Assembly (NCBI GenBank): GCA_001821055.1 | Contig: MHRT01000005.1 | Span: 156,378-220,377 of the forward strand | From: Candidatus Taylorbacteria bacterium RIFCSPHIGHO2_12_FULL_45_16 | GTDB lineage: Bacteria > Patescibacteriota > Minisyncoccia > Phycocordibacterales > PALSA-1337 | Direction: 5' to 3' | Length of the DNA: 64,000 nt | Shown here: positions 10,277-51,594 of the stretch, one piece after another | Numbering within the stretch: position 1 is the stretch's first letter | Layout of the letters: every line of letters starts with the position of its first letter | Program-made: the position numbers and the translations under genes | The notes under the pieces: generated by a model | Told to the model about the DNA's origin: nothing | The model's input: only the letters and a program-made list of their open reading frames with translations | Database searches by the model: none

Positions 10277-10493
10277 AGAAGTAGCGTCTCACAAGGTGGT
10301 GCTCTCCAACTCAAGCCCCAGATACTCTGAGGGAACATCGGAGCGCCTCGTAAGTTATTATCGCATACTTCTGAGATAAGAATAACAAATGGGGCACACC
10401 GTGTGTCAACTAGACATGTGAATTACTTTTAATTTGTAATAAGATGCCTTGTGCAGGAGGCGAAGATTTGACAGAATAATTGCATTTAATATA

Positions 10494-26696: not shown

Positions 26697-27671
26697 CTAC
26701 CTCCAATGTGTCTTTATGTACTCCTCTGTCTCACTCATCGAGAATGGTTGAGTCGAATTGCCGACTCGAACATAGAAATCTTCTTTTTTATCACCATTTT
26801 GAAGATAGGCTGGCTTGTGACTTTCCTTTACCGAAACAACACAGATATCTTTACCGTCGATCTCCTCAAAACTAATCTTCACATATTTCGTAAATGGCAG
26901 ACCTATCAAAGTCTTGATCAACATCGTAACATGATTTTCGAAACCATCACGATTCTTCTTGGTCAGCGTCTTGTAATCATTTTGTAAACCGACGATTTTC
27001 GCGTCATCGCTCACTCCGATGAGCAAAGTTCCACCTTCTGAATTCAAAAACGCCACGATAGTTTTGAGTATCATTTTTTCCAATTCCCTGCTGATTTCGC
27101 CTTTGCGCGCGTCATAGCGGAGTGTTTCTTTGAATTCAACATACAAACCTTCGCCTTTTTCCAGTAGCACGCGCGGATCTCTGGAGAGAATGCGTCCAGA
27201 CGCTTCTTGAACCATGCTTTTGATGACATAGACGTGCTCATCCACATTAGAGACATTCTTGATTTTGGTTATGCGCCCATTAACGTGTTCAAGGATGATT
27301 GTAGCGTGATTCATCATCCTGCTAATCGGAGATTGGTACGTTTCCACTGAAGTCACATCACTAAGACTCATTGATTTGCGACGACGAAAAATTAGGCCTG
27401 ATTTTCTGACTATTTCTTTGTCATTGACTTCATATTGGGTAAAATACCAATCAAAAAACAACAATGAAAGATACACAAGTTGAAAAACAGAAAAAACAAA
27501 TACCTCAAATATATCAAAACGAATATAATCTGAGAGTACCCAATTTTGATACAGTGTGCCGTAATTGCCAACAAATGAAAGACCAAAAAACAAGATGGCC
27601 GCTATGATTTCCATCGACAAAACATTGCGTATAAAGACAAGCGGTCCTTCTTTGATGGTTATGTTACGCAT
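26697..27671 (-). CDS. Membrane-anchored bPH-domain (YdbT-like) protein fused to an AlbA_2/Schlafen-like putative DNA-binding domain
   Basis: N-terminal half has two long TM segments and a PH-like region. C-terminal half has LYVEFKETL … ELEKMILKTIVAFLNSEGGTLLIGVSDDAKIVGL, the AlbA_2 (PF04326-type) signature. Confidence 0.5.
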   Translation of the reverse strand: MRNITIKEGPLVFIRNVLSMEIIAAILFFGLSFVGNYGTLYQNWVLSDYIRFDIFEVFVFSVFQLVYLSLLFFDWYFTQYEVNDKEIVRKSGLIFRRRKSMSLSDVTSVETYQSPISRMMNHATIILEHVNGRITKIKNVSNVDEHVYVIKSMVQEASGRILSRDPRVLLEKGEGLYVEFKETLRYDARKGEISRELEKMILKTIVAFLNSEGGTLLIGVSDDAKIVGLQNDYKTLTKKNRDGFENHVTMLIKTLIGLPFTKYVKISFEEIDGKDICVVSVKESHKPAYLQNGDKKEDFYVRVGNSTQPFSMSETEEYIKTHWR

Positions 27672-42764: not shown

Positions 42765-42857
42765 GTAATTATTGGGCTAATGGTTAAATGCACGGATAAT
42801 TATATTATGTGATAAAAAAATGTCAAAATTTTGTAACATTACATGAGTCAAATTACT

Positions 42858-43028
42858 GGTAGCCCTACGGGGAATCGCCCGCGCCTCTCGCCTCGCCAGC
42901 TCGGCTCGGGCTGGGCACCGGCTCGCGGCCTCGCGTGCTCGCTCGACATCGCTCCGCCGTTCGATCCCCCAGTCGCAGGCACTCAAAGTGCCTGCTCGGT
43001 TTCTACTAATATTACCTACTTAAGTAAC
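42858..43028. repeat. Direct repeat DR-A (171 bp), beginning with the tRNA-Glu 3'-terminal 19-mer gtagccctacggggaatcg
   Basis: Matches 49179-49350 with about 2 substitutions and 1 indel. Contains the hairpin gcaggcactcaaagtgcctgc. Confidence 0.85.
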
Positions 43029-43036
43029 GTCACCGA

Positions 43037-43083
43037 GTAGGCAAATTGTAACATTCGCGCGAACTTTTTACGAGCAAAATTGA
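43037..43083. repeat. Inverted repeat IR-L (47 bp), partner at 49089-49135
   Basis: gtaggcaaattgtaacattcgcgcgaactttttacgagcaaaattga is the reverse complement of 49089-49135 with 1 mismatch. Confidence 0.85.
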
Positions 43084-43088
43084 AGTAC

Positions 43089-44126
43089 CGCCGCCCACAA
43101 TTTCACTGGGGGCGTGCGAGGGCGGCGGGACTACTGCCTCGGCGCTGAAAACTCGGGGGACTGGGGGCGAGTTTTCAGCGCCGTCCGCTTTTTTGGGGGC
43201 GGGGATGGTTTTAAATTTAAAATTAAAGCGCATACCATTGCTGATATGCGCTTTCCTTAGTCCACGTGACCGTGACCGAGTCTAGCAAAGCACGCTGAAC
43301 AGAACTCTAGCGCACTCGAATTAAAGAACAATGAAATTTTGGAGGGGGTTTTACCTCCCTCCCAGTACTCCACAGCAGACAAGAATGCGTTAGCGAGCTT
43401 GCACTCTACGCCACCGGAAAATGGTAACAATAAAAATTCTTAGACGAGCCCCTGTTTTATCAAGGGCTCGTCCCGTAGACTGCCGCAGTGCACTTGAGTC
43501 TAGCCAAGCAAACTACAGGACGCTTCGGCATGAACTGGTATGCAATACGACCAAATCTAACTGGAAATTTTTGCACGAGTGATTTTTAGGCCACTCGTGC
43601 TCCTTAGAGTGGCGTAGCCGAGTATACTGAAGGAAACCAGACTGCAGCGGACCTCAGAACGCGGGGCCAAACCGGAAAGAGTAACCGACCATACCCGAAG
43701 ATATGGTCGGTTCCGTAGACTGCCGCAGCAAACATTTGGCGCACTGCACGCAACGGCAGCGAAGCCCAGGCTGCGTCACTATCAAAATCATCTAAAAATA
43801 GATTAACATAGATATTATAAAAAGTAAAGCGTATACCATTTCTGATATACGCTTTCATTAGTGAACTGCACGACAGCACAGCCTACGATAGTAAGGCACA
43901 GCATAGTCGAGCGAACCACAAAATGACTACGAAATTATAGCTATAGCCAACTGGACCGAACCAAGATTACTAAACCCGAGAAATTTTTAGTAGGAGTGAT
44001 TTTTAGGCCACCCCTACTCCGTACTGAACCCTACTGCAGGAAGCGCTACGATGGAGAACTGCTCCAAGCGTCACAACTGCGTAGTGTCAGAAATTGTAGC
44101 CGACCCCACCCGAAGATGGGATCGGC
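43089..44126. repeat. ORF-free block of at least 10 stem-loops at ~83-165-nt spacing, in families sharing the loop and inner stem while the outer stem varies with compensatory changes
   Basis: H3 43225-43254 aaagcgcata-ccattgctg-atatgcgcttt pairs with H8 43826-43855 aaagcgtata-ccatttctg-atatacgcttt (c/g changed to t/a on both arms). H6 cacgagtg-atttttaggc-cactcgtg pairs with H9 gtaggagtg-atttttaggc-cacccctac. H7 ccgaccat-acccgaagat-atggtcgg pairs with H10 gccgacccc-acccgaagat-gggatcggc. Most hairpins are followed by CC-R-TA-N (ccgtagactgccgcag twice). Confidence 0.7.
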
Positions 44127-44200
44127 CCGTACTTTGCAGGAGGATACTGGAGCGAACGCGAGCTCAGCTAACTGAAGCATGCACCAGTGTACCCTGTAAA

Positions 44201-46018
44201 CTACTTTCCCTTTAACAGCTCCTCTGCTTGGGAAATGCACTCGTCAAATGTACGATCGTTGACGTATGCCTTTTCAAGCCATTTGGGAAGTGAAGCGTGG
44301 ACGAATCGCCGGAACTGTTGAGACATGAATATTGTCACTCCAAGGTCTTTGGTTGAACGAATGTTCCGACCGCGAACCTGAAGTGCCTGTATCATAACCC
44401 GCCAATTCCACAATGCCCAGCGACTACCACCGAATCGTTCCTCCTCAAACTGAGTGCCCGGATCGCTTGGATTCGGATACCCTGGACGCAGGAAGAAGAT
44501 GACTGGAGCAATCTGTTTGGGCAGATCGACCCCTTCGGCATAGTTTGAAGCTGTGCCGCAGAGGACATCGCCTTCACCATCACGGAAACGAACTGCCGCC
44601 TCCTTGGCGGTCACACCGTTCCCATAACTGATAGCTTTGAGGCCTTCCTCTTCCGCCATCATCATGAACTTATCGCGCTCGAGATTCGAGATGGTGACGA
44701 AGAGACTACGAATCCCTTTGTCTGCCAATCGCTTCGAGGCGCGAGCGACCATGCGAATACTTTTCGGAAGATCACGATTACTGCGTTCGTTCACTGCCAA
44801 GTTGGCTGTGTTCGTCGGCATGAAGAGCCGAGCATTGTCAGATGGAAAGTTGGATTCCAGACTGAATACCGGATTCCGTATCCCCGTCTCGTGCCCGAAT
44901 ACCTCCGGATCACCGATCGTAGCCGAGAGCGCCACCGTCGTCTTGCCCATGATCTTTTGGATAATTGGCGCGACGTAGTAACACTTGACCACCAGTCGAT
45001 ACTGCACATGCTCCTTTTCACCCTTTTCCTCCTTGTAATAGGCGTAGGTGTAGTTGAGCGCGTGGCGATTCTGATCAGGAAGTGAATACTCGAATGAGCG
45101 CAGGTAGCGGCGAAGGTCTTTCACCACAACCTCAAGCTTCTTCAGAGTCTCTCGCTTCTCCACGACATCAATGACTTTTTCCTGCACGGCCTTTTCAAGC
45201 TTGCGCAGGAGTCCTGATTGGTCGATGACCTCGAGTTTCTCCATGAGCGCACCAACCTCGCGTGCATTGAGCACGGTTTTCTGATGCGCCGGTTTCGACT
45301 TGATGATGTAGATCAACTTCTTGTAGAAGTCGTGAAGCAATTCTGCCTCCTCGGCGCCAATCTCTCGCAGAAGCTCCACCGACTTGCGCAAATGCCAATC
45401 GGTTATTTCATACGAGAGCGCGTTCCTGACCACTTCGGCCATGCGGTGTGCTTCGTCAATGACGAGCACTTCCGGCTGTTCCCATTCCCGGCTGAAAAGC
45501 TGGGTGAAGAGATAGAAAGCCATAGTGGAAAGAACAATGCCACCCTGTTTAGCCTCGAACTTCTGCTTCAAGTACGGACAAGGGATCGCTCCCTCGACAA
45601 AAGTCTTGCCTGTTGCTTGGTCCACTCTATGCGGGCAGTCTTTGAGCAGTGAGCATGGGATTTCATCCGCCATCGGCTGTTTGTCTGCCGGCAGTGTGTC
45701 CTTGAAGTAGTGACATTGATGCTCATTGCGCCCGAGAGCGACCTTGAGATCAGGAAACTCTTGGCGGATCTGCTCCATCAGAGTCTTGTTCGTTGTGATG
45801 AGGAAGAGCGGTTGTTTCCGCTTCAAATCCGCGGCCTTGAGTACGGTATACTCTACGGCAGTCTTGCCGCTTCCTGTGGGAGATTCGATCGTGACCGAGC
45901 CATTCTCGGAGATGATACGAAACATTTCCCGCTGACTTGCCCACGGTGCTCTGCGGAGAGCGTTTGTGGGGAATGTCTCTTCTAGCAGAGACAATTTTAG
46001 ATGTTCCAGATGTTGCAT
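44201..46018 (-). CDS. DinG/XPD(Rad3)-family Fe-S cluster DNA helicase
   Basis: Walker A ESPTGSGKTAVEY; four Cys between motifs I and II (HQCHYF, IPCSLLKDCPHR, IPCPYL); DEAH box VLVIDEAHRM; C-terminal helicase motifs (VLCGTASNYAEGVDLP…VIFFLRPGYP). The track ORF extends to 46087; the likely start is MQHLEHL at 46018. GC-rich codon usage. Confidence 0.7.
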   Translation of the reverse strand: MQHLEHLKLSLLEETFPTNALRRAPWASQREMFRIISENGSVTIESPTGSGKTAVEYTVLKAADLKRKQPLFLITTNKTLMEQIRQEFPDLKVALGRNEHQCHYFKDTLPADKQPMADEIPCSLLKDCPHRVDQATGKTFVEGAIPCPYLKQKFEAKQGGIVLSTMAFYLFTQLFSREWEQPEVLVIDEAHRMAEVVRNALSYEITDWHLRKSVELLREIGAEEAELLHDFYKKLIYIIKSKPAHQKTVLNAREVGALMEKLEVIDQSGLLRKLEKAVQEKVIDVVEKRETLKKLEVVVKDLRRYLRSFEYSLPDQNRHALNYTYAYYKEEKGEKEHVQYRLVVKCYYVAPIIQKIMGKTTVALSATIGDPEVFGHETGIRNPVFSLESNFPSDNARLFMPTNTANLAVNERSNRDLPKSIRMVARASKRLADKGIRSLFVTISNLERDKFMMMAEEEGLKAISYGNGVTAKEAAVRFRDGEGDVLCGTASNYAEGVDLPKQIAPVIFFLRPGYPNPSDPGTQFEEERFGGSRWALWNWRVMIQALQVRGRNIRSTKDLGVTIFMSQQFRRFVHASLPKWLEKAYVNDRTFDECISQAEELLKGK

Positions 46019-46032
46019 GTTTCCTTTCTTCT

Positions 46033-46377
46033 CTACTTTTTGTTGTCGATCCAAGCAACGAGCTTGAACCTGCCGATTCCTTCCCACTTGTCCGACCGAC
46101 CAAGCACGTTAGGTGCTCCTGTAGGAATAGTCGTGTTTTCCATGAGCTCGTATAGACGCCCGTGGAATATTGTTCTGAGTCCCGCTTTCACGGTCTCATT
46201 CGGCCTTCCCATAATCGGCAGATAGCGGAATGTTTTGTCCTGCGGATCATATTCGTTCTTTCGTTCAGGTATTAGATGAGCATATTTGTTCACACTCGTA
46301 TGATGTCCGCGTCTTGGTCTGTGATCCGACTTACGACGGAATCGTGGACCATAATGTGGATAGACTTTTTTACCCAT
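46033..46377 (-). CDS. Hypothetical basic protein (island cargo)
   Basis: 114-aa ORF with the SD-like AGGAGAA 9 nt upstream; Arg/His-rich N-terminus. No family recognised. Confidence 0.35.
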   Translation of the reverse strand: MGKKVYPHYGPRFRRKSDHRPRRGHHTSVNKYAHLIPERKNEYDPQDKTFRYLPIMGRPNETVKAGLRTIFHGRLYELMENTTIPTGAPNVLGRSDKWEGIGRFKLVAWIDNKK

Positions 46378-46666
46378 GAGAATATCCGTTCTCCTAAATT
46401 GTATTTGTTGTCAAAAAATCAAGCTTACTCGGCCTGATTCTGGCTTAGCTGTTAAGGGCTTTTCCATTTTTGATGCTAACATACAATAAGTAATCCGTCA
46501 ACTTGCGTAAAGGACCGTGTTCTGTTACGCTGTAATTACAAATGGCTTCGGCCTCGCCCCGCTCACGCGGGGAGGAAGAAATGAGCGATTATTCTATCAA
46601 ACGAATGATCGCTTGTTTTATTTTCTGAAACTGTTCCGAGTCAATGGTGGTGATTTTTTCCTGTAA

Positions 46667-46978
46667 TCACTTGGAGTCTACCAATCGAATTTGAGATAGA
46701 ATGATTTTTCGCGCTACCTTATCACCTAGATTAATATCCGCATAGTATTTTCCTTTTTTATTTTTTGTAGTAAGTGGCACAGATAAAAATACTTCTTTAT
46801 TGAAACCCTTGATGATTAGTACTGGGCGCGCAAAATCAAATCCTTTGCCATCCTGCTCAAATCCAACATTTTCTCCGAGAGAACACCACCAGATTTCTCG
46901 CTCATGATAAAATCGCCGCTCCTTTTCATTATGGATATTTTGCTTGAGTGTATGCCATTTTTGAAAATCTTTTTTCAT
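46667..46978 (-). CDS. MazF/PemK/Kid-like toxin-fold protein (mRNA interferase family); no adjacent antitoxin ORF found
   Basis: …REIWWCSLGENVGFEQDGKGFDFARPVLIIKG…FLSVPLTTKNKKGKYYADINLGDKVARKIILSQIRLVD matches MazF-like logic (RGDI…G.EQ.G.RP.LVL…P.T…….V…QIR.ID). 103 aa. Confidence 0.5.
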   Translation of the reverse strand: MKKDFQKWHTLKQNIHNEKERRFYHEREIWWCSLGENVGFEQDGKGFDFARPVLIIKGFNKEVFLSVPLTTKNKKGKYYADINLGDKVARKIILSQIRLVDSK

Positions 46979-47002
46979 CGTAGGATTTTAACATAAAAAA
47001 AT

Positions 47003-48030
47003 GGCAGGCACTCATTGAGAATGCCCGCCCCATAGAATAGGACTAGTCTGGATTAGTGCAGCCAACTCCGCGCAACTTCACGGCACTGTAGACTGAAATT
47101 TCAGACAAGGAACAAGATGGATAAATCTCGGCGGGGAATTTTCATTCCCCGCCCCGTAGACTGGTGAAGCGTGGTTTAGTACAGGCCAACAAGGAGAACA
47201 GAACTACACCTTACCGGATCAAATCACATGTTGAAACCATGACTCCTTCTGTAAAAAGTAAACGGTAGGAGAAAGTTGATGCTCTCTCCTACCCCTTGCG
47301 CAACCGCACCGCTCCCTAGAGTAGCCCACGGGAGGGCAGCTAACTCCAACAAACGATGGTGGAAATGTAAATTCTGCCGTGGAGTTTTACCTCCACGGCC
47401 CATACTCGAGTGCACAGCAGAGAGGAAAGACGCGCTAAGGCGAACTCCGGGCTGGTTTACACTAGAGAAAAGTTTGGCGGGAGTTTTACCTCCCAGCCCC
47501 ATACTTAGGCACGCGACCACTTCAGGCCACAGTGGGCTAGGCCAGGTCACACCACCCTAAATTTGTTTTAGTCTGAATTTAATATAACATACAAAGCTAA
47601 ATTATGCAAATTTAAAGCGCATACCATTGCTGATATGCGCTTTCCATAGAAGACCGATGTGAAGCTTGGCGCACCTCACTGAAGACAGCGGCACGCGACC
47701 AAGGGACACTACAACGGACTCGAAAAGAACAATTATGAAATTATGTCGCGGAGATATTTCACTCCGCGACCAATACTAAACGGCAGTGTAGTCTAGCCCA
47801 CTGCGGCTAACCGAGCTACACCGAGGTGTGCGCGAGACTGCCACAAAGAACAAACTGGAAAGTGAAAGAATGGCGGGGAATTTTCATTCCCCGCCCCGTA
47901 ACACAGATAACTAGAGTTGCAGAAAAGTCCACCACAGTCCGGGGAACAAAACCGCACCTTACGCGACCCTACGTTACGCAAAAAATCTGAAAATTATAGG
48001 CGGAGGTCAATCTTGCGATCAACCTCCGCC
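47003..48030. repeat. ORF-free block of degenerate ~100-138-bp tandem units (three intervals of exactly 127), each carrying one stem-loop
   Basis: Hairpin starts at 47003, 47130, 47264, 47376, 47476, 47614, 47745, 47872, 47999. ggcggggaat-tttc-attccccgcc is identical at 47130 and 47872. gccgtggag-ttttac-ctccacggc and ggcgggag-ttttac-ctcccagcc share loop and inner stem. aaagcgcata…tatgcgcttt at 47614 is a third copy of the array-1 H3 family. Units starting at 47130 and 47872 also share caccttacYg about 80 nt in. Confidence 0.7.
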
Positions 48031-48146
48031 CCACAGAGAAGCCCGGGACAGTTTAGTTCAGTATGCCCTAGTGAGCGACACGCGAGCTAAGACCAGATCA
48101 CCGAACTGCAAACCCTATTGACTCTGAAGGACGCGCGGACGGAAGG

Positions 48147-48839
48147 TCAGCTGGTCACGACTTCCGCGAGCCGATTGGCACCATTGCCCGACACCGGTGC
48201 TGACGCTTCGGTTTCCTCGGACTCTTCGGGTCTCGTGCCTTGCTTGTCCGATTCTTCCATCGTCACTTCCCATTTCTTGACCGCGAAACGGCCGAAGGGA
48301 CCGCCCTTGTTCGGACGGAAGTCACCGATGCCCGCTTTGGAGCCGGCGGTGTCCACAAGCTGGCGAATCAGAGTGTCTTTCGCTTGCTTGCCATCAACTT
48401 GGAAGGTCACATCGAGCGACCAATCCTTGAACTTCGGGCGGACGATGCAGACGGCGATGTCCATGCAGGTACCGCGACGCATGTCGGGTTCCCACGCAAT
48501 TTCGCCCTTGGCGTTGTTGTCCGCGAACGGCAGAAACTCTTCCTCAATGGAGAGGAACGAGTAGAGCAAGGTGCCCTCAGCAGTCGAAACCGCCTTCTTA
48601 CCGTCGAATTTGTGGAACCGACCAGCGGCTTTGATGGCCGCGAGCAGATTCAGTGTGGGAATGCCCATCGGCCCGGTGCTGTCGTTCTGGCGGTAGATCT
48701 TCGTAACAGCTTCCTGTTTTGGCGACAGATCTTTGGCCTTGGGCGCATGGACTTTGGTACGGAGACCTTCCAAGGTCGCCGGAGTCATGCGATTGATAAG
48801 GAGTGGGCTAATGCCCACGAGTAGTGCGCGTATTTTCAT
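48147..48839 (-). CDS. Hypothetical protein (island cargo), acidic C-terminal tail
   Basis: About 230-aa ORF; the likely start is MKIRALLVGISPLL at 48839, and the track ORF begins at 48884. GC-rich. No family recognised. Confidence 0.4.
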   Translation of the reverse strand: MKIRALLVGISPLLINRMTPATLEGLRTKVHAPKAKDLSPKQEAVTKIYRQNDSTGPMGIPTLNLLAAIKAAGRFHKFDGKKAVSTAEGTLLYSFLSIEEEFLPFADNNAKGEIAWEPDMRRGTCMDIAVCIVRPKFKDWSLDVTFQVDGKQAKDTLIRQLVDTAGSKAGIGDFRPNKGGPFGRFAVKKWEVTMEESDKQGTRPEESEETEASAPVSGNGANRLAEVVTS

Positions 48840-49088
48840 AACCTTACTTTCCGACTTTAGAGCAGAATCAATGATCCTGCTCAAGACGTTATTACCTTTG
48901 TTTTATGCTGTCAAAGAAAAGGCTTTGTTAAGCCCTATAAATAGGTCCACCCTAATTACAAAAAAAGGTTAGCACATTGATTTATTTGTGTCAATAGCAT
49001 GCTTGACAACTTTACTATTCTATTTGTATATATAAATACATATAAAGTACACTATTCACGGTCTAATGCGTGTCGGTACAGCGGGACA

Positions 49089-49135
49089 TCAATTTTGCTC
49101 GTAAAAAGTTCGCGTGAATGTTACAATTTGCCTAC
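49089..49135. repeat. Inverted repeat IR-R (partner of 43037-43083)
   Basis: tcaattttgctcgtaaaaagttcgcgtgaatgttacaatttgcctac. Confidence 0.85.
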
Positions 49136-49178
49136 CAACAAAAATGGCCTTCGCATTCGCTTAGGCTCATTTTTGTAT

Positions 49179-49350
49179 TGGTAGCCCTACGGGGAATCGC
49201 CCGCGCCTCTCGCCTCGCCAGCTCGGCTCGGGCTGGGCACCGGCTCGCGGCCTCGCGTGCTCGCTCGGCATCGCTCCGCCGTTCGATTCCCCAGTCGCAG
49301 GCACTCAAAGTGCCTGCTCGGTTTCTACTAATATTACCTACTTAAGTAAC
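49179..49350. repeat. Direct repeat DR-B (172 bp), immediately adjacent to tRNA-Glu
   Basis: See DR-A. Separated from the tRNA 3' end by only 10 nt (aacatctctc, 49351-49360). Confidence 0.85.
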
Positions 49351-49360
49351 ATCTCTCTCG

Positions 49361-49432
49361 TAGCCCTACGGGGAATCGAACCCCGATTACTGCCTTGAGA
49401 AGGCAATGTCCTAACCGTTAGACGATAGGGCC
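49361..49432 (-). tRNA. tRNA-Glu (anticodon CUC)
   Basis: Minus-strand read GGCCCTA-TC-GTCT-AACGGTTA-GGAC-A-TTGCC-TTCTCAA-GGCAG-TAAT-CGGGG-TTCGATT-CCCCG-TAGGGCT-A: cloverleaf with G1.U72, 7-nt T-loop TTCGATT, anticodon loop TTCTCAA. CCA not encoded. Confidence 0.8.
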
Positions 49433-49501: not shown

Positions 49502-50944
49502 CTACGCTTTCTCAAGCCATTCTTTCTCCTGACGGACCACCAACTGGTCGGCCTGATCAGGATATTTCATTAACATCTTTACAATGCGCTCCATCCGAAT
49601 CGACTGTGAACCCTTGATTAGAACTAGATCACCAGTTTTGATGATTGTTTTGAGAAATTCCCCAGCTTCAATAGAATTATCAAATGCGTGGACATTTCCA
49701 ACCACAAAACCATTCTTCACAGCCTCATCAGCCGTAGTGCGAGAGCGTTGTCCAACTGTTACAAGCACACTTGCCACACCGACAACTTCCCTACCGATCC
49801 GCCGGTGTTCTTCAGCCGAATAATGACCGAGTTCCATCATGTCACCCAGCGCAATGATTTTCGAACCATTAGTTTCCAATTCCTTCAAAGTATTCAAAGC
49901 TGAAATGACCGCATCTGGTGATGAATTGTAGCTATCATCGATCAACGTCGTATCGTAGGAGCCAGCAATTATATTCATTCTACTTTTCGGCGCTTCATAA
50001 TTATTGAGACCGTTAATGATTGCCGAGATCGGAACATCCTTTACTTTACCTACTGCGGCTGCTGCCAATAATGGATACATGTATGATCTACCAAGGAGGC
50101 CATTTATTGAAACTTGGGTACTCATTCCATTCAAATTCAATTTGAAAGTAAAGCCAGAAGGAATCTTTGTAGCCACAGCCAAACTGGTTGAATTCGAAGC
50201 TGAAACTGGAATAGAACTAGTCTGATTTGACTCTTCACTAGTCGAAATTGGCATAGAAATCGACTTTGAAATTGAAATTTGGGCTGTGGCCGAAACCGGC
50301 ACTTCTGCCAATTCATAAACAATTCTCTGTTCACTCCCCTTCACATCGGCCTTATTAATTGTTCCGAATGAAATGACTTTTACATCTTTATCCTTGACCA
50401 GTTCTCCAAGCAACAAAACTTTTTCATTATCAGCAAAAAGCACTAACGTCCCACCCTTTTTCACAGCCGTAGCAAGTGAAGCCTTCTCTTCAAAGACTTC
50501 TTTCGGTGATTTGAAAAACTCGACATGGACAGGGGTTGAACTGACTTGAGTGACTACGGCAATCTCCGGATGAAGCCATCTGGCTATTTTTCTAATATCA
50601 CCTGGATGATCAGCACCAATTTCCAAAACCAAACAGTCAGGATATTCATTCTTCCGGAAAATCAATCCGAGACCACATGAAATATTCCGAAGCCAACCCC
50701 ACAGACTATGCCAAGCATTTGGTACGCCGATAATAGTCAGGGGCAAACCGATTTCACTATTCAAACTCTTTTCACTTTTGCGAACATAATTACTCTGATT
50801 CTTGAGCACGCTATAAATAGCATCCTTGGTTGAAGTTTTCCCTACACTGCCAGTAACAGCTACTATAAAAGGCCTATACTTGGCCAGAATGAGTCGAGAT
50901 TCGAGAATCAGGATTGCTGCCAGGATTTTCTTGAAGAGAATCAT
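49502..50944 (-). CDS. murF: UDP-N-acetylmuramoyl-tripeptide--D-alanyl-D-alanine ligase with a Ser/Thr-rich low-complexity insertion
   Basis: VAVTGSVGKTSTKDAI P-loop and DDSYNSSPDAV (MurF-type). About 60-aa insert SATAQISISKSISMPISTSEESNQTSS…. Confidence 0.75.
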   Translation of the reverse strand: MILFKKILAAILILESRLILAKYRPFIVAVTGSVGKTSTKDAIYSVLKNQSNYVRKSEKSLNSEIGLPLTIIGVPNAWHSLWGWLRNISCGLGLIFRKNEYPDCLVLEIGADHPGDIRKIARWLHPEIAVVTQVSSTPVHVEFFKSPKEVFEEKASLATAVKKGGTLVLFADNEKVLLLGELVKDKDVKVISFGTINKADVKGSEQRIVYELAEVPVSATAQISISKSISMPISTSEESNQTSSIPVSASNSTSLAVATKIPSGFTFKLNLNGMSTQVSINGLLGRSYMYPLLAAAAVGKVKDVPISAIINGLNNYEAPKSRMNIIAGSYDTTLIDDSYNSSPDAVISALNTLKELETNGSKIIALGDMMELGHYSAEEHRRIGREVVGVASVLVTVGQRSRTTADEAVKNGFVVGNVHAFDNSIEAGEFLKTIIKTGDLVLIKGSQSIRMERIVKMLMKYPDQADQLVVRQEKEWLEKA

Positions 50945-51594
50945 TGTTTTAGTGATTTTATATCCCCAATCTTTTCACTTATTTTTTTAACAGATAAATT
51001 ATTAACCAACGATTCCATTTGAAAAATCGCTATTTTATTTAACTTCTGAAGCCGTATATTTTGTGAAATTTTCTGTGGAATAATGTGTTTCCTGATTGCA
51101 TCAGTATGAATTTTATAATTCACCTTGGCAAGTAGACGTTTCAAATCCCAACCAGTAGCTATTTTCTCGTTTTCTTCAATTTTTAGGCGTTGAAACTCTT
51201 TGATCAGATATAGTTCAAACTCGGGACTAATCCAGGAAGCAAATTCAAAAGCAATGTCCATATGGCCATAAGTTCCACCATATCGACCAGATTTTGAAAT
51301 AAGCCCGATTGCGGAGGTTTCATTTATCCATCTTTTTGGTGTTAAAGAAAAACTATTTAATCCCGCCTTATTTTTAAACCCATCGAATTCGATGGAATTA
51401 AAGGTTGGATTATGAATTCGTTCCCACAGACCAAGAAACTCTATTGTACTCCTTGTACGGATCCAGTTTTGCAAAATATAGTCAGTTTTTTCATTGTCTT
51501 TATAGCGAGCAATATCAGACAAAGAAATAAAGTCGCCTGCCAAATGAGACGTAAAGCCAATCGAGATATCCTGTACGACTATTTTTTTTATCAT
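50941..51594 (-). CDS. KilA-N domain-containing protein (phage/mobile-element-associated DNA-binding fold) embedded in the dcw cluster
   Basis: …RYGGTYGHMDIAFEFASWISPEFELYLIKEF… matches the KilA-N core (GTWVHPDLAIEFARWLSPEF). 217 aa with a C-terminal coiled-coil. Confidence 0.55.
   Translation of the reverse strand: MIKKIVVQDISIGFTSHLAGDFISLSDIARYKDNEKTDYILQNWIRTRSTIEFLGLWERIHNPTFNSIEFDGFKNKAGLNSFSLTPKRWINETSAIGLISKSGRYGGTYGHMDIAFEFASWISPEFELYLIKEFQRLKIEENEKIATGWDLKRLLAKVNYKIHTDAIRKHIIPQKISQNIRLQKLNKIAIFQMESLVNNLSVKKISEKIGDIKSLKQ

What the first reader, a model, noticed from the sequence alone, without database searches (positions are those of the whole stretch)
42858..49379. GC-rich ~6.5-kb island at tRNA-Glu(CUC) with triplicated tRNA 3' end, 172-bp direct repeats and 47-bp inverted repeats, but no recombinase
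**Observed**
- Composition jumps from AT-rich to GC-rich exactly at 42858 and 49350.
- The tRNA-Glu 3'-terminal 19-mer gtagccctacggggaatcg occurs three times in the same orientation: in the tRNA, at 49180-49198 and at 42859-42877.
- The two internal copies each start a 171/172-bp near-identical direct repeat.
- A 47-bp inverted-repeat pair lies just inside the direct repeats.
- Cargo is a DinG-like helicase, a MazF-like toxin, two unknown proteins, and two ~1.1-kb blocks of structured repeats.

**Expected but missing**
- Integration into a tRNA 3' end with regeneration of the tRNA is the classic tyrosine-integrase mechanism, yet no integrase or excisionase is recognisable.

**Interpretation**
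- The layout tRNA | 154 nt + 19-mer | island | 154 nt + 19-mer fits two tandem integration events of related elements that share a 154-bp att arm, the second reduced to a stub.
- Alternatively it is a satellite-like element mobilised in trans.
- Either way the cargo combination does not match any element class I can name.
Basis: partly seen in the sequence, partly recalled or inferred. Interest (0 to 1): 0.8.

Follow-up and report, generated by a model that had tools for sequence, protein, structure and literature searches.

The report
VIPR guide-RNA system on tRNA-side islet
The "GC-rich island without a recombinase" is a small, gain-and-loss DNA islet in a candidate-phyla-radiation bacterium. 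It carries a recently described CRISPR-like RNA-guided system (VIPR): one Cas7-like protein, a DinG-type helicase and 17 guide-RNA genes. It is a new example of a known kind, not a new class.

Summary
tRNA-Glu(CUC) lies at 49360-49432(-). Its last 19 nt occur three times. There are 178-nt direct repeats (98%), 55-nt inverted repeats (95%), and no recombinase in the island or in the 40 window ORFs screened with Pfam.

The cargo is identifiable.
- **Vipr:** the 230-aa "unknown protein" is a Vipr RAMP. Its profile matches PDB 36pp "SUSP1 Vipr" at E=8e-23, its fold is Cas7-like, and the G-loop D-F-R and thumb Arg are conserved.
- **vrRNA arrays:** the two "structured repeat" blocks hold 8 and 9 vrRNA genes. 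Each has 13-18 pentamers Y-N-N-N-S followed by a hairpin tail of 8-14 bp.
- **Helicase:** the DinG-like gene encodes an intact Fe-S XPD/DinG helicase. It follows vipr in about 27 Patescibacteria loci.
- **Guide code:** between orthologous guides, pentamer positions 2-3 are conserved while positions 1, 4 and 5 drift (p=9e-4). This fits the published dinucleotide code.

VIPR was described in two 2026 preprints, so this is a new member of a known kind.

Two contigs of the same species show an empty site: tRNA, one repeat copy, then flank. The islet is therefore gained and lost, most simply by recombination between its 178-bp repeats. No targets were found.

The parts
49360..49432 (-). tRNA-Glu(CUC), intact, no encoded CCA. 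Its 3' end faces the islet.
   Evidence: ARAGORN; Rfam tRNA 62.1 bits
49176..49353 (-). Direct repeat, tRNA-proximal copy (DR-R): a 154-nt GC-rich arm, a copy of the tRNA's last 19 nt (49181-49199), then CCA.
49081..49135 (.). Inverted repeat, right arm (IR-R), upstream of the vipr promoter region.
   Evidence: 86-95% match to L109
48147..48839 (-). vipr: Vipr RAMP protein, 230 aa counted from the ATG that aligns with homologues. The mechanical ORF runs from a TTG at 48884.
   Evidence: Profile vs PDB 36pp_D 'SUSP1 Vipr protein' E=7.7e-23. Pairwise alignment shows R135, D174, F175 and R176 matching SUSP1 R138, D177, W178 and R179. AF2 pLDDT 88.6. Foldseek top hits are Csm3 and type VII Cas7, E~3e-6. 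phrog_4652.
46985..48140 (-). vrRNA array 2, between vipr and the mazF-like gene: 9 vrRNA genes.
47999..48110 (-). vrRNA 2.1: 16 pentamers (48110-48031) + 14-bp hairpin tail (48030-47999).
47872..47981 (-). vrRNA 2.2: 17 pentamers + 10-bp tail. The tail is identical to that of vrRNA 2.8.
47745..47859 (-). vrRNA 2.3: 18 pentamers + 9-bp tail. An orthologue in L027 has positions 2-3 conserved.
47614..47731 (-). vrRNA 2.4: 18 pentamers + 13-bp tail. L027 has the same tail with a different guide.
47476..47575 (-). vrRNA 2.5: 15 pentamers + 8-bp tail. An orthologue in L027 has positions 2-3 conserved.
47376..47469 (-). vrRNA 2.6: 14 pentamers + 9-bp tail.
47264..47363 (-). vrRNA 2.7: 14 pentamers + 12-bp tail.
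47130..47218 (-). vrRNA 2.8: 13 pentamers + 10-bp tail.
47004..47120 (-). vrRNA 2.9: about 18 pentamers with one 6-mer + 10-bp tail. It ends 25 nt before the mazF-like start.
46667..46978 (-). MazF/PemK-like ORF (103 aa). It is short relative to the profile, has no antitoxin ORF, and is absent from related VIPR loci.
   Evidence: Pfam PF02452 30.6 bits, profile positions 3-83/109; phrog_9567 1.4e-13; tblastn absent elsewhere
46033..46377 (-). 114-aa basic protein directly upstream of the helicase. It is a lineage-restricted accessory of unknown fold.
   Evidence: Only 3 homologue clusters, each in a locus with Vipr and the helicase. AF2 pLDDT 53, not usable.
44201..46018 (-). XPD/DinG-family Fe-S SF2 helicase (605 aa), the predicted VIPR accessory (Vap).
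   Evidence: Pfam DEAD, DEAD_2, ResIII and Helicase_C_2. PADLOC typeIV_DinG PDLC01439 4.9e-43, full length. Walker A, DEAH, SAT, QxxGRxxR and four Cys conserved in 24 loci. Downstream of vipr in about 27 Patescibacteria loci.
43215..44200 (-). vrRNA array 1, starting 4 nt after the helicase stop codon: 8 vrRNA genes.
44098..44196 (-). vrRNA 1.1: 14 pentamers + 12-bp tail.
43989..44093 (-). vrRNA 1.2: 15 pentamers + 11-bp tail.
43826..43943 (-). vrRNA 1.3: 18 pentamers + 13-bp tail.
43683..43805 (-). vrRNA 1.4: about 15-18 pentamers + 13-bp tail.
43573..43676 (-). vrRNA 1.5: 15 pentamers + 10-bp tail.
43443..43553 (-). vrRNA 1.6: 16 pentamers + 12-bp tail. Orthologue in L028.
43341..43432 (-). 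vrRNA 1.7: 14 pentamers + 9-bp tail.
43225..43333 (-). vrRNA 1.8: 16 pentamers + 13-bp tail. Orthologue in L028 with positions 2-3 conserved in 8 of 9 pentamers.
43092..43205 (.). GC-rich block of three hairpins at the end of array 1, including a perfect 16-bp stem at 43140-43183. It is conserved with a compensatory change in L109 and is probably a terminator or structured end module.
43037..43091 (.). Inverted repeat, left arm (IR-L).
   Evidence: 89% identical together with the adjoining block to L109, where it lies ~125 nt upstream of a large serine recombinase gene
42854..43031 (-). Direct repeat, flank-proximal copy (DR-L): the 154-nt arm, the 19-mer (42859-42877), then CCA.

Best explanation
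The segment 42854-49353 is a ~6.3-kb horizontally acquired islet in a Candidatus Taylorbacteria (Patescibacteria/CPR) chromosome. Its cargo is a VIPR (Viral Interference Programmable Repeat) RNA-guided system of the helicase-associated kind that is typical of Patescibacteria.

**Shown**
- The islet encodes a Vipr protein, a minimal Cas7-like RAMP.
- It carries two arrays with 17 vrRNA genes, an intact Fe-S XPD/DinG-type helicase, a small 114-aa accessory protein and a MazF-like ORF.
- Read on the gene strand, each vrRNA is a tract of 13-18 pentamers Y-N-N-N-S, ending in TANGG, followed at once by an 8-14-bp hairpin tail.

**Inferred by homology with the characterised SUSP1 system**
- Vipr protomers polymerise along each vrRNA, one per pentamer.
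- They hold the conserved S/Y scaffold bases flipped out.
- They present the dinucleotide at positions 2-3 to read double-stranded DNA by a gapped code: two paired bases, one skipped base.

**Inferred, not tested**
- The bound filament blocks transcription.
- It probably recruits the DinG-like helicase to the R-loop, as DinG acts with the Cas7 filament in type IV-A CRISPR.
- The effect would be to silence or clear a competing phage or mobile element.

**Mobility**
- The islet lies between two 178-bp direct repeats next to tRNA-Glu.
- Cells of the same population exist with and without it.
- No recombinase is encoded.
- Loss, and possibly gain, most simply occurs by recombination between the 178-bp repeats. 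This would use host homologous recombination or a recombinase supplied in trans.
- The repeat unit itself is probably the leftover arm of an earlier tRNA-integrating element.
For: **Vipr identity**
- A profile of 56 homologues hits PDB 36pp 'SUSP1 Vipr protein' at E=7.7e-23 over the full length.
- The thumb Arg and the G-loop D-aromatic-R, which contact the conserved scaffold bases of the guide in SUSP1, align to R135 and D174-F175-R176 (residues from 10.64898/2026.04.26.720927).
- These residues are invariant or nearly invariant in the family.
- The AF2 model has pLDDT 88.6. Its best PDB folds are Csm3 and type VII Cas7.

**vrRNAs**
- Both arrays show 5-nt periodicity: z=4.5 and 5.3, 0 of 500 shuffles reach the observed value, and there is no 3-nt signal.
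- Phased on the hairpin, position 1 is T/C in ~85% of pentamers and position 5 is never A in the last 60 nt.
- The parse gives 13-18 pentamers per unit.
- All 17 tails fold, with dG from -13.5 to -24.9 and z from -4.3 to -9. There are 15 different stem sequences.
- TANGG followed at once by a hairpin of at least 8 bp occurs 11 times on this strand of the window, always inside the arrays.
- The same unit recurs in 24 other helicase-type loci. A phase score of at least 0.8 is reached by 43.5% of candidate units against 1.5% of shuffles.

**Code**
- Between orthologous guides of the window and of L027/L028, positions 2-3 differ at 14 of 118 sites. Positions 1, 4 and 5 differ at 51 of 181 sites (Fisher p=9e-4).

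**Module conservation**
- vipr, then a non-coding gap, then the helicase, then a second non-coding gap is found in about 27 Patescibacteria loci.
- The helicase motifs and four Fe-S cysteines are conserved.

**Published description**
- The published VIPR description matches this architecture: a ~20-kDa RAMP, ~100-nt vrRNAs with 9-16 pentamer repeats and a structured tail, variant consensus forms such as YNNNG, and helicase or nuclease vap genes.

**Mobility**
- Empty-site contigs are L024 and L020.
- An island-bearing contig and an empty-site contig occur in the same sample, ERZ27254737.
- Island GC is 52% against 40% for the host.
Against: - No RNA data exist. The transcription, ends and processing of the 17 units are inferred.
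- No target was found under any of eight pairing rules in ~1 Mb of local sequence.
- Four viral-collection scans and one metagenome scan with the published rule also found none; the viral scans gave only chance hits.
- The pentamer consensus is looser (Y-NN-N-S) than the characterised Y-NN-GG. The exact pairing rule could therefore differ in this clade.
- The role of the helicase is by analogy only.
- The text of the preprint does not say which VIPR type carries helicases. 'Type IV' is my deduction by elimination.
- Empty-site contig L024 has N at exactly the two sites where the repeat copies differ, so it could be a collapsed assembly. Only L020 argues for real empty-site molecules.
- How the islet first arrived is unknown.
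Confidence: 0.85

Rival explanations
1. This is a classic tRNA-targeting integrative element or satellite. A tyrosine integrase supplied in trans exchanged strands in the 19-nt tRNA 3'-end core. Two tandem integrations occurred and the first element decayed to the 154-nt stub. It would coexist with the VIPR cargo, so it rivals only the mobility part of the best explanation.
For: - The tRNA 3' 19-mer is triplicated in one orientation.
- The copies carry CCA, which the resident tRNA gene lacks. They therefore came from elsewhere.
- The stub is GC-rich like the island and stays in the empty site.
- A Saccharibacteria relative, L047, has tRNA-Glu(CUC) + 147 nt + an exact 19-mer copy directly upstream of its VIPR locus.
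Against: - No integrase was found in the island or in the 40 window ORFs screened.
- The att arm was not found in the viral collection.
- Empty-site contig L020 joins the tRNA-proximal junction to DR-L alleles. At least one exchange therefore lay in the first ~64 nt of the repeat, not in the 19-mer.
- Most related VIPR loci are not next to a tRNA.
Confidence: 0.35
2. The islet is a decayed or non-autonomous derivative of an element moved by a large serine recombinase. The 55-bp inverted repeats would be what is left of its recombinase-recognised ends.
For: - IR-L plus the adjoining GC-rich hairpins (43041-43182) is 89% identical to a Hainich groundwater contig, L109. There it lies ~125 nt upstream of a gene with a serine-recombinase catalytic domain.
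- A full-length relative, L111, has Resolvase + Recombinase + Zn_ribbon_recom domains.
- This recombinase family is very abundant in Paceibacteria metagenomes and is nearly always cut by contig ends, as multi-copy mobile genes are.
Against: - Only one short contig links the repeat to the recombinase.
- Two other loci of the family, L110 and L111, lack the repeat.
- Serine integrases neither need nor create 178-bp direct repeats.
- The repeats lie inside the direct repeats, and the empty site is explained without them.
Confidence: 0.15
3. This is a degenerate or minimal type IV CRISPR-Cas locus: a DinG helicase, a Cas7-like protein and arrays of hairpin repeats with long spacers.
For: - The helicase matches the PADLOC profile 'typeIV_DinG, CAS-IV-A associated' at 4.9e-43 over its full length.
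- The 230-aa protein has a Cas7-like fold.
- The units look like hairpin 'repeats' alternating with ~75-nt variable segments.
Against: - The 'repeats' are not conserved in sequence: 15 different stems among 17.
- The 'spacers' are pentamer-periodic scaffolds, not free sequence.
- PADLOC finds no Csf1, Csf3, Csf5, Cas6 or Cas1.
- NCBIfam cas_csf4 scores 25.6 bits against a cut-off of 400.
- The protein matches Vipr by sequence.
Confidence: 0.03
4. Array 2 plus the MazF-like gene form a type III-like toxin-antitoxin module, in which repeat RNA neutralises an endoribonuclease. The arrays would then be antitoxin RNAs, not guides.
For: - Array 2 ends 25 nt upstream of the mazF-like start codon, on the same strand.
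- No protein antitoxin ORF is present.
Against: - Identical array architecture occurs in about 27 loci that have no MazF-like gene.
- Array 1 is not next to any toxin.
- The units are not identical short repeats.
- MazF belongs to type II systems, and the ORF is short against the profile.
Confidence: 0.04

Closest known systems
VIPR systems (Viral Interference Programmable Repeat): Vipr RAMP + vrRNA + vap, described for Escherichia phage SUSP1 and a Pseudomonas fulva prophage (bioRxiv 10.64898/2026.04.26.720920 and 10.64898/2026.04.26.720927)
   Same: - The protein is a Vipr homologue with a Cas7-like fold and the same RNA-contacting G-loop and thumb residues.
- The guides are ~100-nt RNAs made of tandem pentamers, with a pyrimidine at one fixed position and a variable dinucleotide, capped by a structured 3' tail.
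- Arrays lie upstream and downstream of the protein genes.
- A DNA-acting accessory gene is adjacent.
- There is no CRISPR array and no adaptation genes.
   Different: - The pentamer consensus is relaxed to Y-NN-N-S instead of Y-NN-GG.
- The tail is a single hairpin whose stem sequence differs from guide to guide, rather than an invariant pseudoknotted tail.
- There are 17 guides, against 4 in SUSP1.
- The accessory is a DinG-type Fe-S helicase plus a 114-aa protein, not a DNA-binding Vap1.
- The host is a CPR bacterial chromosome, not a phage.
- Targets are unknown.
Type IV-A CRISPR-Cas (Csf complex with the DinG/Csf4 helicase)
   Same: - A Cas7-family filament on a guide RNA is paired with an XPD/DinG-family helicase.
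- There is no nuclease and no adaptation module.
- It is carried on mobile DNA.
- The likely outcome is interference with transcription or replication rather than cleavage.
   Different: - There are no CRISPR repeats and no Csf1, Csf3 or Csf5/Cas6.
- The helicase does not reach the Csf4 family threshold.
- The guide is read by a gapped dinucleotide code rather than by contiguous pairing.
tRNA-gene genomic islands flanked by a duplicated tRNA 3' end (tyrosine-integrase islands, satellites)
   Same: - It lies next to a tRNA gene.
- It is bounded by direct repeats that contain the tRNA's 3' end.
- Its composition is foreign.
- It is present or absent within a population.
   Different: - It has no integrase or excisionase.
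- The repeat is 178 bp and does not overlap the functional tRNA.
- Three copies of the tRNA end are present.
- The one inferable crossover lies outside the tRNA-derived core.

Membership tests
VIPR system | A Vipr protein: sequence homologue of the characterised Vipr RAMPs | tested here: met
   hmmsearch of the 56-sequence profile against PDB hits 36pp_D 'SUSP1 Vipr protein' at E=7.7e-23, covering 1-185 of the profile and 1-188 of the chain. The single sequence gives E=3.8e-5.
VIPR system | Minimal single-RRM RAMP fold with a glycine-rich loop and a thumb | tested here: met
   AF2 pLDDT 88.6, pTM 0.80. Foldseek PDB top hits are Csm3 and type VII Cas7, E 3e-6 to 5e-4. The G-loop GIGDFRPNKGGPFGRF is invariant or nearly so.
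VIPR system | Residues that hold the conserved scaffold bases of the guide (SUSP1 R138, D177, W178, R179) | tested here: met
   They align to R135, D174, F175 and R176. R135 and R176 are invariant; D174 and F175 are at least 90% conserved.
VIPR system | vrRNA: tandem pentanucleotide repeats (YNNGG or related NNNGG/YNNNG/NNNNG), 9-16 or more units | tested here: met
   There are 17 tracts of 13-18 pentamers Y-N-N-N-S. Period-5 power has z=4.5 and 5.3. This is the looser variant consensus, not the canonical YNNGG.
VIPR system | Structured 3' tail capping each repeat tract | tested here: met
   All 17 of 17 tracts are followed by a hairpin of 8-14 bp directly after the last pentamer, with z from -4.3 to -9. 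It is a simple hairpin, not the SUSP1-type pseudoknot.
VIPR system | Variable dinucleotide carries the specificity | tested here: met
   This is indirect evidence. Positions 2-3 are hypervariable among guides but conserved between orthologous guides: 14 of 118 sites differ against 51 of 181 at the other positions, p=9e-4.
VIPR system | Adjacent vap accessory gene acting on DNA | tested here: met
   A DinG/XPD-type helicase lies downstream of vipr here and in about 27 Patescibacteria loci. The preprint lists helicases among vap genes.
VIPR system | Natural targets matching the 1-nt-skip rule (NNx) | tested here: inconclusive
   There was no match above the shuffled controls in ~1 Mb of local sequence. 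Seed scans of the viral and metagenome collections gave only chance hits. The databases searched probably lack the relevant CPR phages.
VIPR system | vrRNAs expressed and bound by Vipr; DNA binding and silencing | not testable with these tools
   This needs small-RNA sequencing, pull-down and reporter assays.
Type IV-A CRISPR-Cas | CRISPR array of near-identical repeats | tested here: not met
   There are 15 different stem sequences among the 17 units. TRF and the repeat finder show no identical-repeat array.
Type IV-A CRISPR-Cas | Csf1, Csf2, Csf3, Csf5 proteins and a Csf4-family DinG | tested here: not met
   PADLOC hits only the helicase. NCBIfam cas_csf4 scores 25.6 bits against a cut-off of 400.
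tRNA-integrating tyrosine-integrase island | Direct repeats containing the tRNA 3' end at both borders | tested here: met
tRNA-integrating tyrosine-integrase island | Integrase, with or without an excisionase, encoded in the element | tested here: not met
   No recombinase domain was found in the island ORFs or in the 40 window ORFs screened.
tRNA-integrating tyrosine-integrase island | Empty-site variants in related genomes | tested here: met
   L024 (JGI 3300002105) and L020 (ERZ27254737) carry tRNA + one repeat + flank. L024 may be a collapsed assembly, because it has N at the two polymorphic sites.
tRNA-integrating tyrosine-integrase island | Strand exchange within the tRNA-derived core | tested here: inconclusive
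   The L020 alleles place one crossover in the tRNA-proximal ~64 nt of the repeat, outside the 19-mer. A single contig does not settle the matter.
Type II MazEF toxin-antitoxin | MazF/PemK-fold toxin with an adjacent antitoxin gene | tested here: not met
   The toxin-like ORF passes the Pfam cut-off (30.6 against 23.1 bits) but covers only profile positions 3-83 of 109. There is no antitoxin ORF on either side.

The most novel reading that the evidence does not exclude
The Patescibacteria helicase-type VIPR may be a mechanistically distinct branch.

- Its guide scaffold is relaxed to Y-NN-N-S, with a per-guide hairpin tail.
- It may recruit an Fe-S DinG helicase, and a 114-aa partner, to the Vipr filament. 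That would make it a functional bridge between VIPR and type IV-A CRISPR.
- It may travel as a recombinase-less cassette that is swapped in and out of CPR chromosomes through long att-like repeats beside tRNA genes.
Probability: 0.25. Interest if true: 0.75.

Novelty: new member of a known kind. Interest (0 to 1): 0.5.

Why it matters
VIPR was described only in 2026 and has been characterised in phage systems of Proteobacteria. This locus adds several things.

- **Natural test bed:** it is a clean example of the helicase-associated form in an ultra-small CPR bacterium. It has 17 guides, and closely related loci already show purifying selection on the dinucleotide code positions.
- **Testable questions:** what do CPR cells, or their parasites, target with VIPR? 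What does a DinG helicase add to a silencing filament? Does a looser pentamer scaffold change the reading rule?
- **Population genetics:** the islet's presence/absence polymorphism in one aquifer population could be used to study gain and loss of an RNA-guided defence cassette without a dedicated recombinase.
- **Annotation:** such 'structured repeat blocks' next to a ~200-aa orphan protein should now be read as VIPR.

Tried and rejected
- **Rfam:** at gathering and at E-value thresholds there is no family for the arrays, the repeats or the stub. Only weak chance hits appeared.
- **Other readings of the arrays:** I considered a CRISPR array, integron attC sites, REP/RAYT elements and IS200/IS605 ends. 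I rejected them because the flanks are not complementary, the stems differ between units, and the 5-nt periodicity has another explanation.
- **Type III toxin-antitoxin:** rejected, see the rival explanations.
- **The stub as a gene:** I examined the 178-nt repeat for a tRNA-like or intron-containing tRNA gene and for pentamer periodicity. I found no support (period-5 power 0.5).
- **Target searches:**
  - Eight pairing rules were tried on ~1 Mb of local sequence.
  - Four viral-collection seed scans and one metagenome scan gave only chance hits, checked by extension.
- **att arm and core:** two viral-collection scans found nothing.
- **55-bp repeat:** a metagenome scan gave a single 1.2-kb contig, L109. 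I could not get a longer version of that element.
- **114-aa protein:** the structure prediction had pLDDT 53, too poor for a fold search.
- **Preprint supplementary tables:** they are not held, so I could not check whether this exact locus or its type number is listed.

Full report
**1. The observation**

tRNA-Glu(CUC) lies at 49360-49432 on the minus strand. Its last 19 nt occur exactly three times in one orientation, at 42859, 49181 and 49360, with none expected by chance. The two extra copies are followed by an encoded CCA that the tRNA gene itself lacks.

Each extra copy ends a 178-nt direct repeat: 42854-43031 and 49176-49353, 98% identical. Just inside these repeats lie 55-nt inverted repeats, 43037-43091 and 49081-49135, 95% complementary.

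GC rises from about 40% to about 52% inside the segment. It dips to host-like values at the mazF-like gene and upstream of the 230-aa gene. All genes are on the minus strand.

The segment is 100% identical in independent NCBI, JGI and ENA assemblies, so it is not an assembly artefact. A source annotation names the organism Candidatus Taylorbacteria bacterium RIFCSPHIGHO2_02_FULL. The flanking genes (Mur ligase, PBP, LeuRS and others) are ordinary bacterial housekeeping genes.

**2. The two 'structured repeat' blocks**

Cutting both blocks at their hairpins gives 8 + 9 units of about 100-140 nt. Read on the gene strand, each unit has four parts:
- an A/T-rich start;
- a variable stretch of about 65-90 nt;
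- the motif TANGG;
- directly after it, a hairpin of 8-14 bp.

The hairpins are all stable (dG -13.5 to -24.9 kcal/mol; z -4.3 to -9 against shuffles). They use 15 different stem sequences, so it is the structure that is conserved, not the sequence.

The 'variable' stretch is not free sequence. Phased on the hairpin, it is a run of pentamers with T/C at position 1 (~85%), G/C at position 5 (A 0% in the last 60 nt) and a G bias at position 4. A parse that allows occasional 4- or 6-mers gives 13-18 pentamers per unit. Period-5 spectral power is significant in both arrays (z=4.5 and 5.3; 0 of 500 shuffles reach it). Period 3, which dominates in the neighbouring genes, is absent.

**3. The 'unknown' 230-aa protein**

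Pfam, PADLOC and NCBIfam give nothing useful. PHROGs gives a family of unknown function.

It has 117 homologue clusters, all hypothetical. In other Patescibacteria genomes these are followed by the same arrangement: a non-coding gap of 0.5-2.6 kb, a DinG-like helicase, and a second non-coding gap. Reading one such locus (L006) showed the same TANGG-hairpin units.

A profile of 56 homologues matches one solved structure, PDB 36pp 'SUSP1 Vipr protein', at E=7.7e-23 over the full length. The AlphaFold model is confident (pLDDT 88.6), and its nearest solved folds are Cas7-family RAMPs, namely Csm3 and type VII Cas7.

**4. What VIPR is**

Two 2026 preprints describe it.
- **Components:** a ~20-kDa ancestral RAMP (Vipr) and ~100-nt vrRNAs made of 9-16 YNNGG pentamers plus a structured 3' tail.
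- **Mechanism:** Vipr protomers polymerise along the RNA, flip out GGY and present the NN dinucleotides. These read double-stranded DNA with one skipped base per unit.
- **Variation:** seven types are defined. Variant pentamer consensus forms (NNNGG, YNNNG, NNNNG) and accessory vap genes, including nucleases and helicases, are reported.

In SUSP1 the guanines and the pyrimidine are held by thumb R138 and G-loop D177, W178 and R179. In the window protein these align to R135 and D174-F175-R176. They are invariant or nearly invariant across the family.

The island's cargo therefore meets every VIPR feature that sequence analysis can test (see the membership test). Two features differ from the characterised type:
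- The pentamer scaffold is looser, Y-NN-N-S.
- The tail is a simple hairpin that differs from guide to guide.

**5. An evolutionary test of the code**

The Nomurabacteria contig L027 (Vipr 85% identical) and the Taylorbacteria contig L028 (81%) carry orthologues of several guides.
- Between orthologous tracts, positions 2-3 differ at 14 of 118 sites. Positions 1, 4 and 5 differ at 51 of 181 sites (Fisher p=9e-4).
- For the two clearest pairs the counts are 3 of 56 against 24 of 84.
- Changes at position 1 stay within pyrimidines.
- Position 5 changes mostly stay within G/C.

So the dinucleotide that is hypervariable among guides is the part held constant within a guide lineage. That is what one expects if it carries the specificity. 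Two other syntenic units keep the same tail but have an unrelated tract, which indicates guide replacement.

**6. The helicase and the other genes**

The 605-aa protein has Pfam DEAD, DEAD_2, ResIII and Helicase_C_2 domains. Across 24 loci it conserves Walker A, DEAH, SAT, QxxGRxxR and four cysteines between the Walker motifs. These cysteines are the Fe-S domain of XPD/DinG helicases.

Its best defence-library hit is a DinG profile associated with type IV-A CRISPR (4.9e-43, full length). It fails the Csf4 equivalog by a wide margin (25.6 bits against 400).

Among 80 Vipr loci from species-representative genomes, the helicase follows vipr only in the Patescibacteria clade (one further locus is labelled a Woesearchaeota bin) and not in other phyla. 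Among 80 viral-contig loci only two have even a weak helicase hit.

The 114-aa protein upstream of the helicase has just three homologue clusters, each in a locus with Vipr and the helicase. Its fold could not be predicted.

The MazF-like ORF is lineage-specific, short against the profile and lacks an antitoxin. Its role is open: addiction remnant, array processing or effector.

**7. Targets**

None were found.
- Eight pairing rules applied to ~1 Mb of local sequence gave nothing above controls with shuffled pentamer order.
- Seed patterns from conserved guides under the published NNx rule gave only chance hits in the viral collection and none in the metagenome collection.
- There is no sign of self-targeting within the 64-kb window.

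**8. Mobility**

Two long contigs with identical flanking proteins lack the island. L024 (JGI 3300002105, 60.8 kb) and L020 (ERZ27254737, 52.6 kb) read tRNA-Glu, one copy of the 178-nt repeat, then the flank.
- L024 has N at exactly the two internal sites where the repeat copies differ. It could be a collapsed consensus.
- L020 comes from a k=141 assembly of a sample that also yielded an island-bearing contig. It joins the tRNA-proximal junction to the DR-L alleles. No 141-mer is shared between the two repeat copies, so this hybrid probably reflects real molecules.
- It also places a crossover in the first ~64 nt of the repeat, not in the tRNA-derived 19-mer.

Several assemblies break at the tRNA end, at the repeats and inside the arrays, as expected for repeats and population heterogeneity.

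No recombinase domain is present in the island or in the 40 window ORFs screened. The simplest account is loss, and possibly gain, by recombination between the 178-bp repeats.

The repeat unit is GC-rich, ends in a CCA-bearing tRNA 3' end and remains in the empty site. A Saccharibacteria relative, L047, has tRNA-Glu(CUC) + 147 nt + an exact 19-mer copy directly upstream of its VIPR locus. This suggests that the site is used recurrently.

There is a second lead. IR-L with its adjoining GC-rich hairpins is 89% identical to a groundwater contig, L109, where it lies ~125 nt upstream of a large serine recombinase gene. One stem there shows a compensatory change. The link rests on one short contig.

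**9. Verdict**

The finding is real and the island is mobile. Its 'unclassifiable' cargo is a helicase-type VIPR system with 17 guide genes, and VIPR is already described.

The additions made here are:
- the tRNA-side, recombinase-less islet context with an empty site;
- the relaxed pentamer consensus with per-guide hairpin tails;
- the conservation pattern that supports the dinucleotide code;
- the restriction of the DinG-type accessory to Patescibacteria.

Noticed in passing
window 10277-10372 (-): DUF3800-V RNA (Rfam RF02964, 76.7 bits against a gathering score of 37.4). In the Hainich relatives L114-L116, DUF3800-domain proteins flank the VIPR helicase.
   Followed up: no
window 26697-27671 (-): A protein with bacterial PH (bPH_2) and Schlafen AlbA_2 domains, possibly defence-related.
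   Followed up: no
window 50941-51594 (-): A KilA-N domain protein whose gene overlaps the start of the Mur ligase gene inside the cell-wall/division cluster. This is an odd place for a phage-type DNA-binding domain.
   Followed up: no
L047 5215-5453 and 5560-7320: In this Saccharibacteria MAG, tRNA-Glu(CUC) is followed after 147 nt by an exact copy of its last 19 nt, then by the VIPR locus. Each vrRNA there has its own TTGACA-17-TATAAT promoter and a two-hairpin tail: a conserved GACAAGGTA..CCTTGTC stem followed by a terminator.
   Followed up: partly
L029 6992-7068: In this Baikal Patescibacteria MAG, a tRNA-Asp gene lies inside the non-coding gap between vipr and the helicase.
   Followed up: no
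L109 1-1172: This 1.2-kb groundwater contig carries a copy of the island's IR-L plus GC-rich hairpins next to a large serine recombinase gene. The recombinase family has 842 proteins at E<1e-10, nearly all truncated by contig ends, which suggests a very active multi-copy element in Paceibacteria. Downstream, L109 has a ~190-nt long imperfect hairpin before AT-rich host-like DNA.
   Followed up: partly
L004 9800-9876 (corresponds to window ~42846-42900): In sample ERZ4903125 the island is 99.8% identical. The last ~45 nt of DR-L, including the tRNA-like 19-mer, and the first flank bases are strongly diverged just before the contig ends.
   Followed up: no
L112 165-566 and 9236-10838: A related VIPR locus (Vipr 38%, 114-aa protein 73%, helicase 53% identical) sits next to an rve-type transposase fragment. 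It is followed by two paralogous 202-aa ORFs.
   Followed up: no
window 49136-49180 (-): Between DR-R and IR-R there is a hairpin (ACAAAAATG.GCC / GGCCATTTTTGT) followed by a T-run on the minus strand. It looks like a terminator that insulates the tRNA/stub from the islet.
   Followed up: no
window 46378-46666: This 289-nt non-coding gap between the mazF-like gene and the 114-aa gene contains GC-rich hairpins. Only a weak, sub-threshold Rfam hit was found (Yfr19, E=0.87). It is presumably the promoter/leader of the 114-aa-helicase operon.
   Followed up: no
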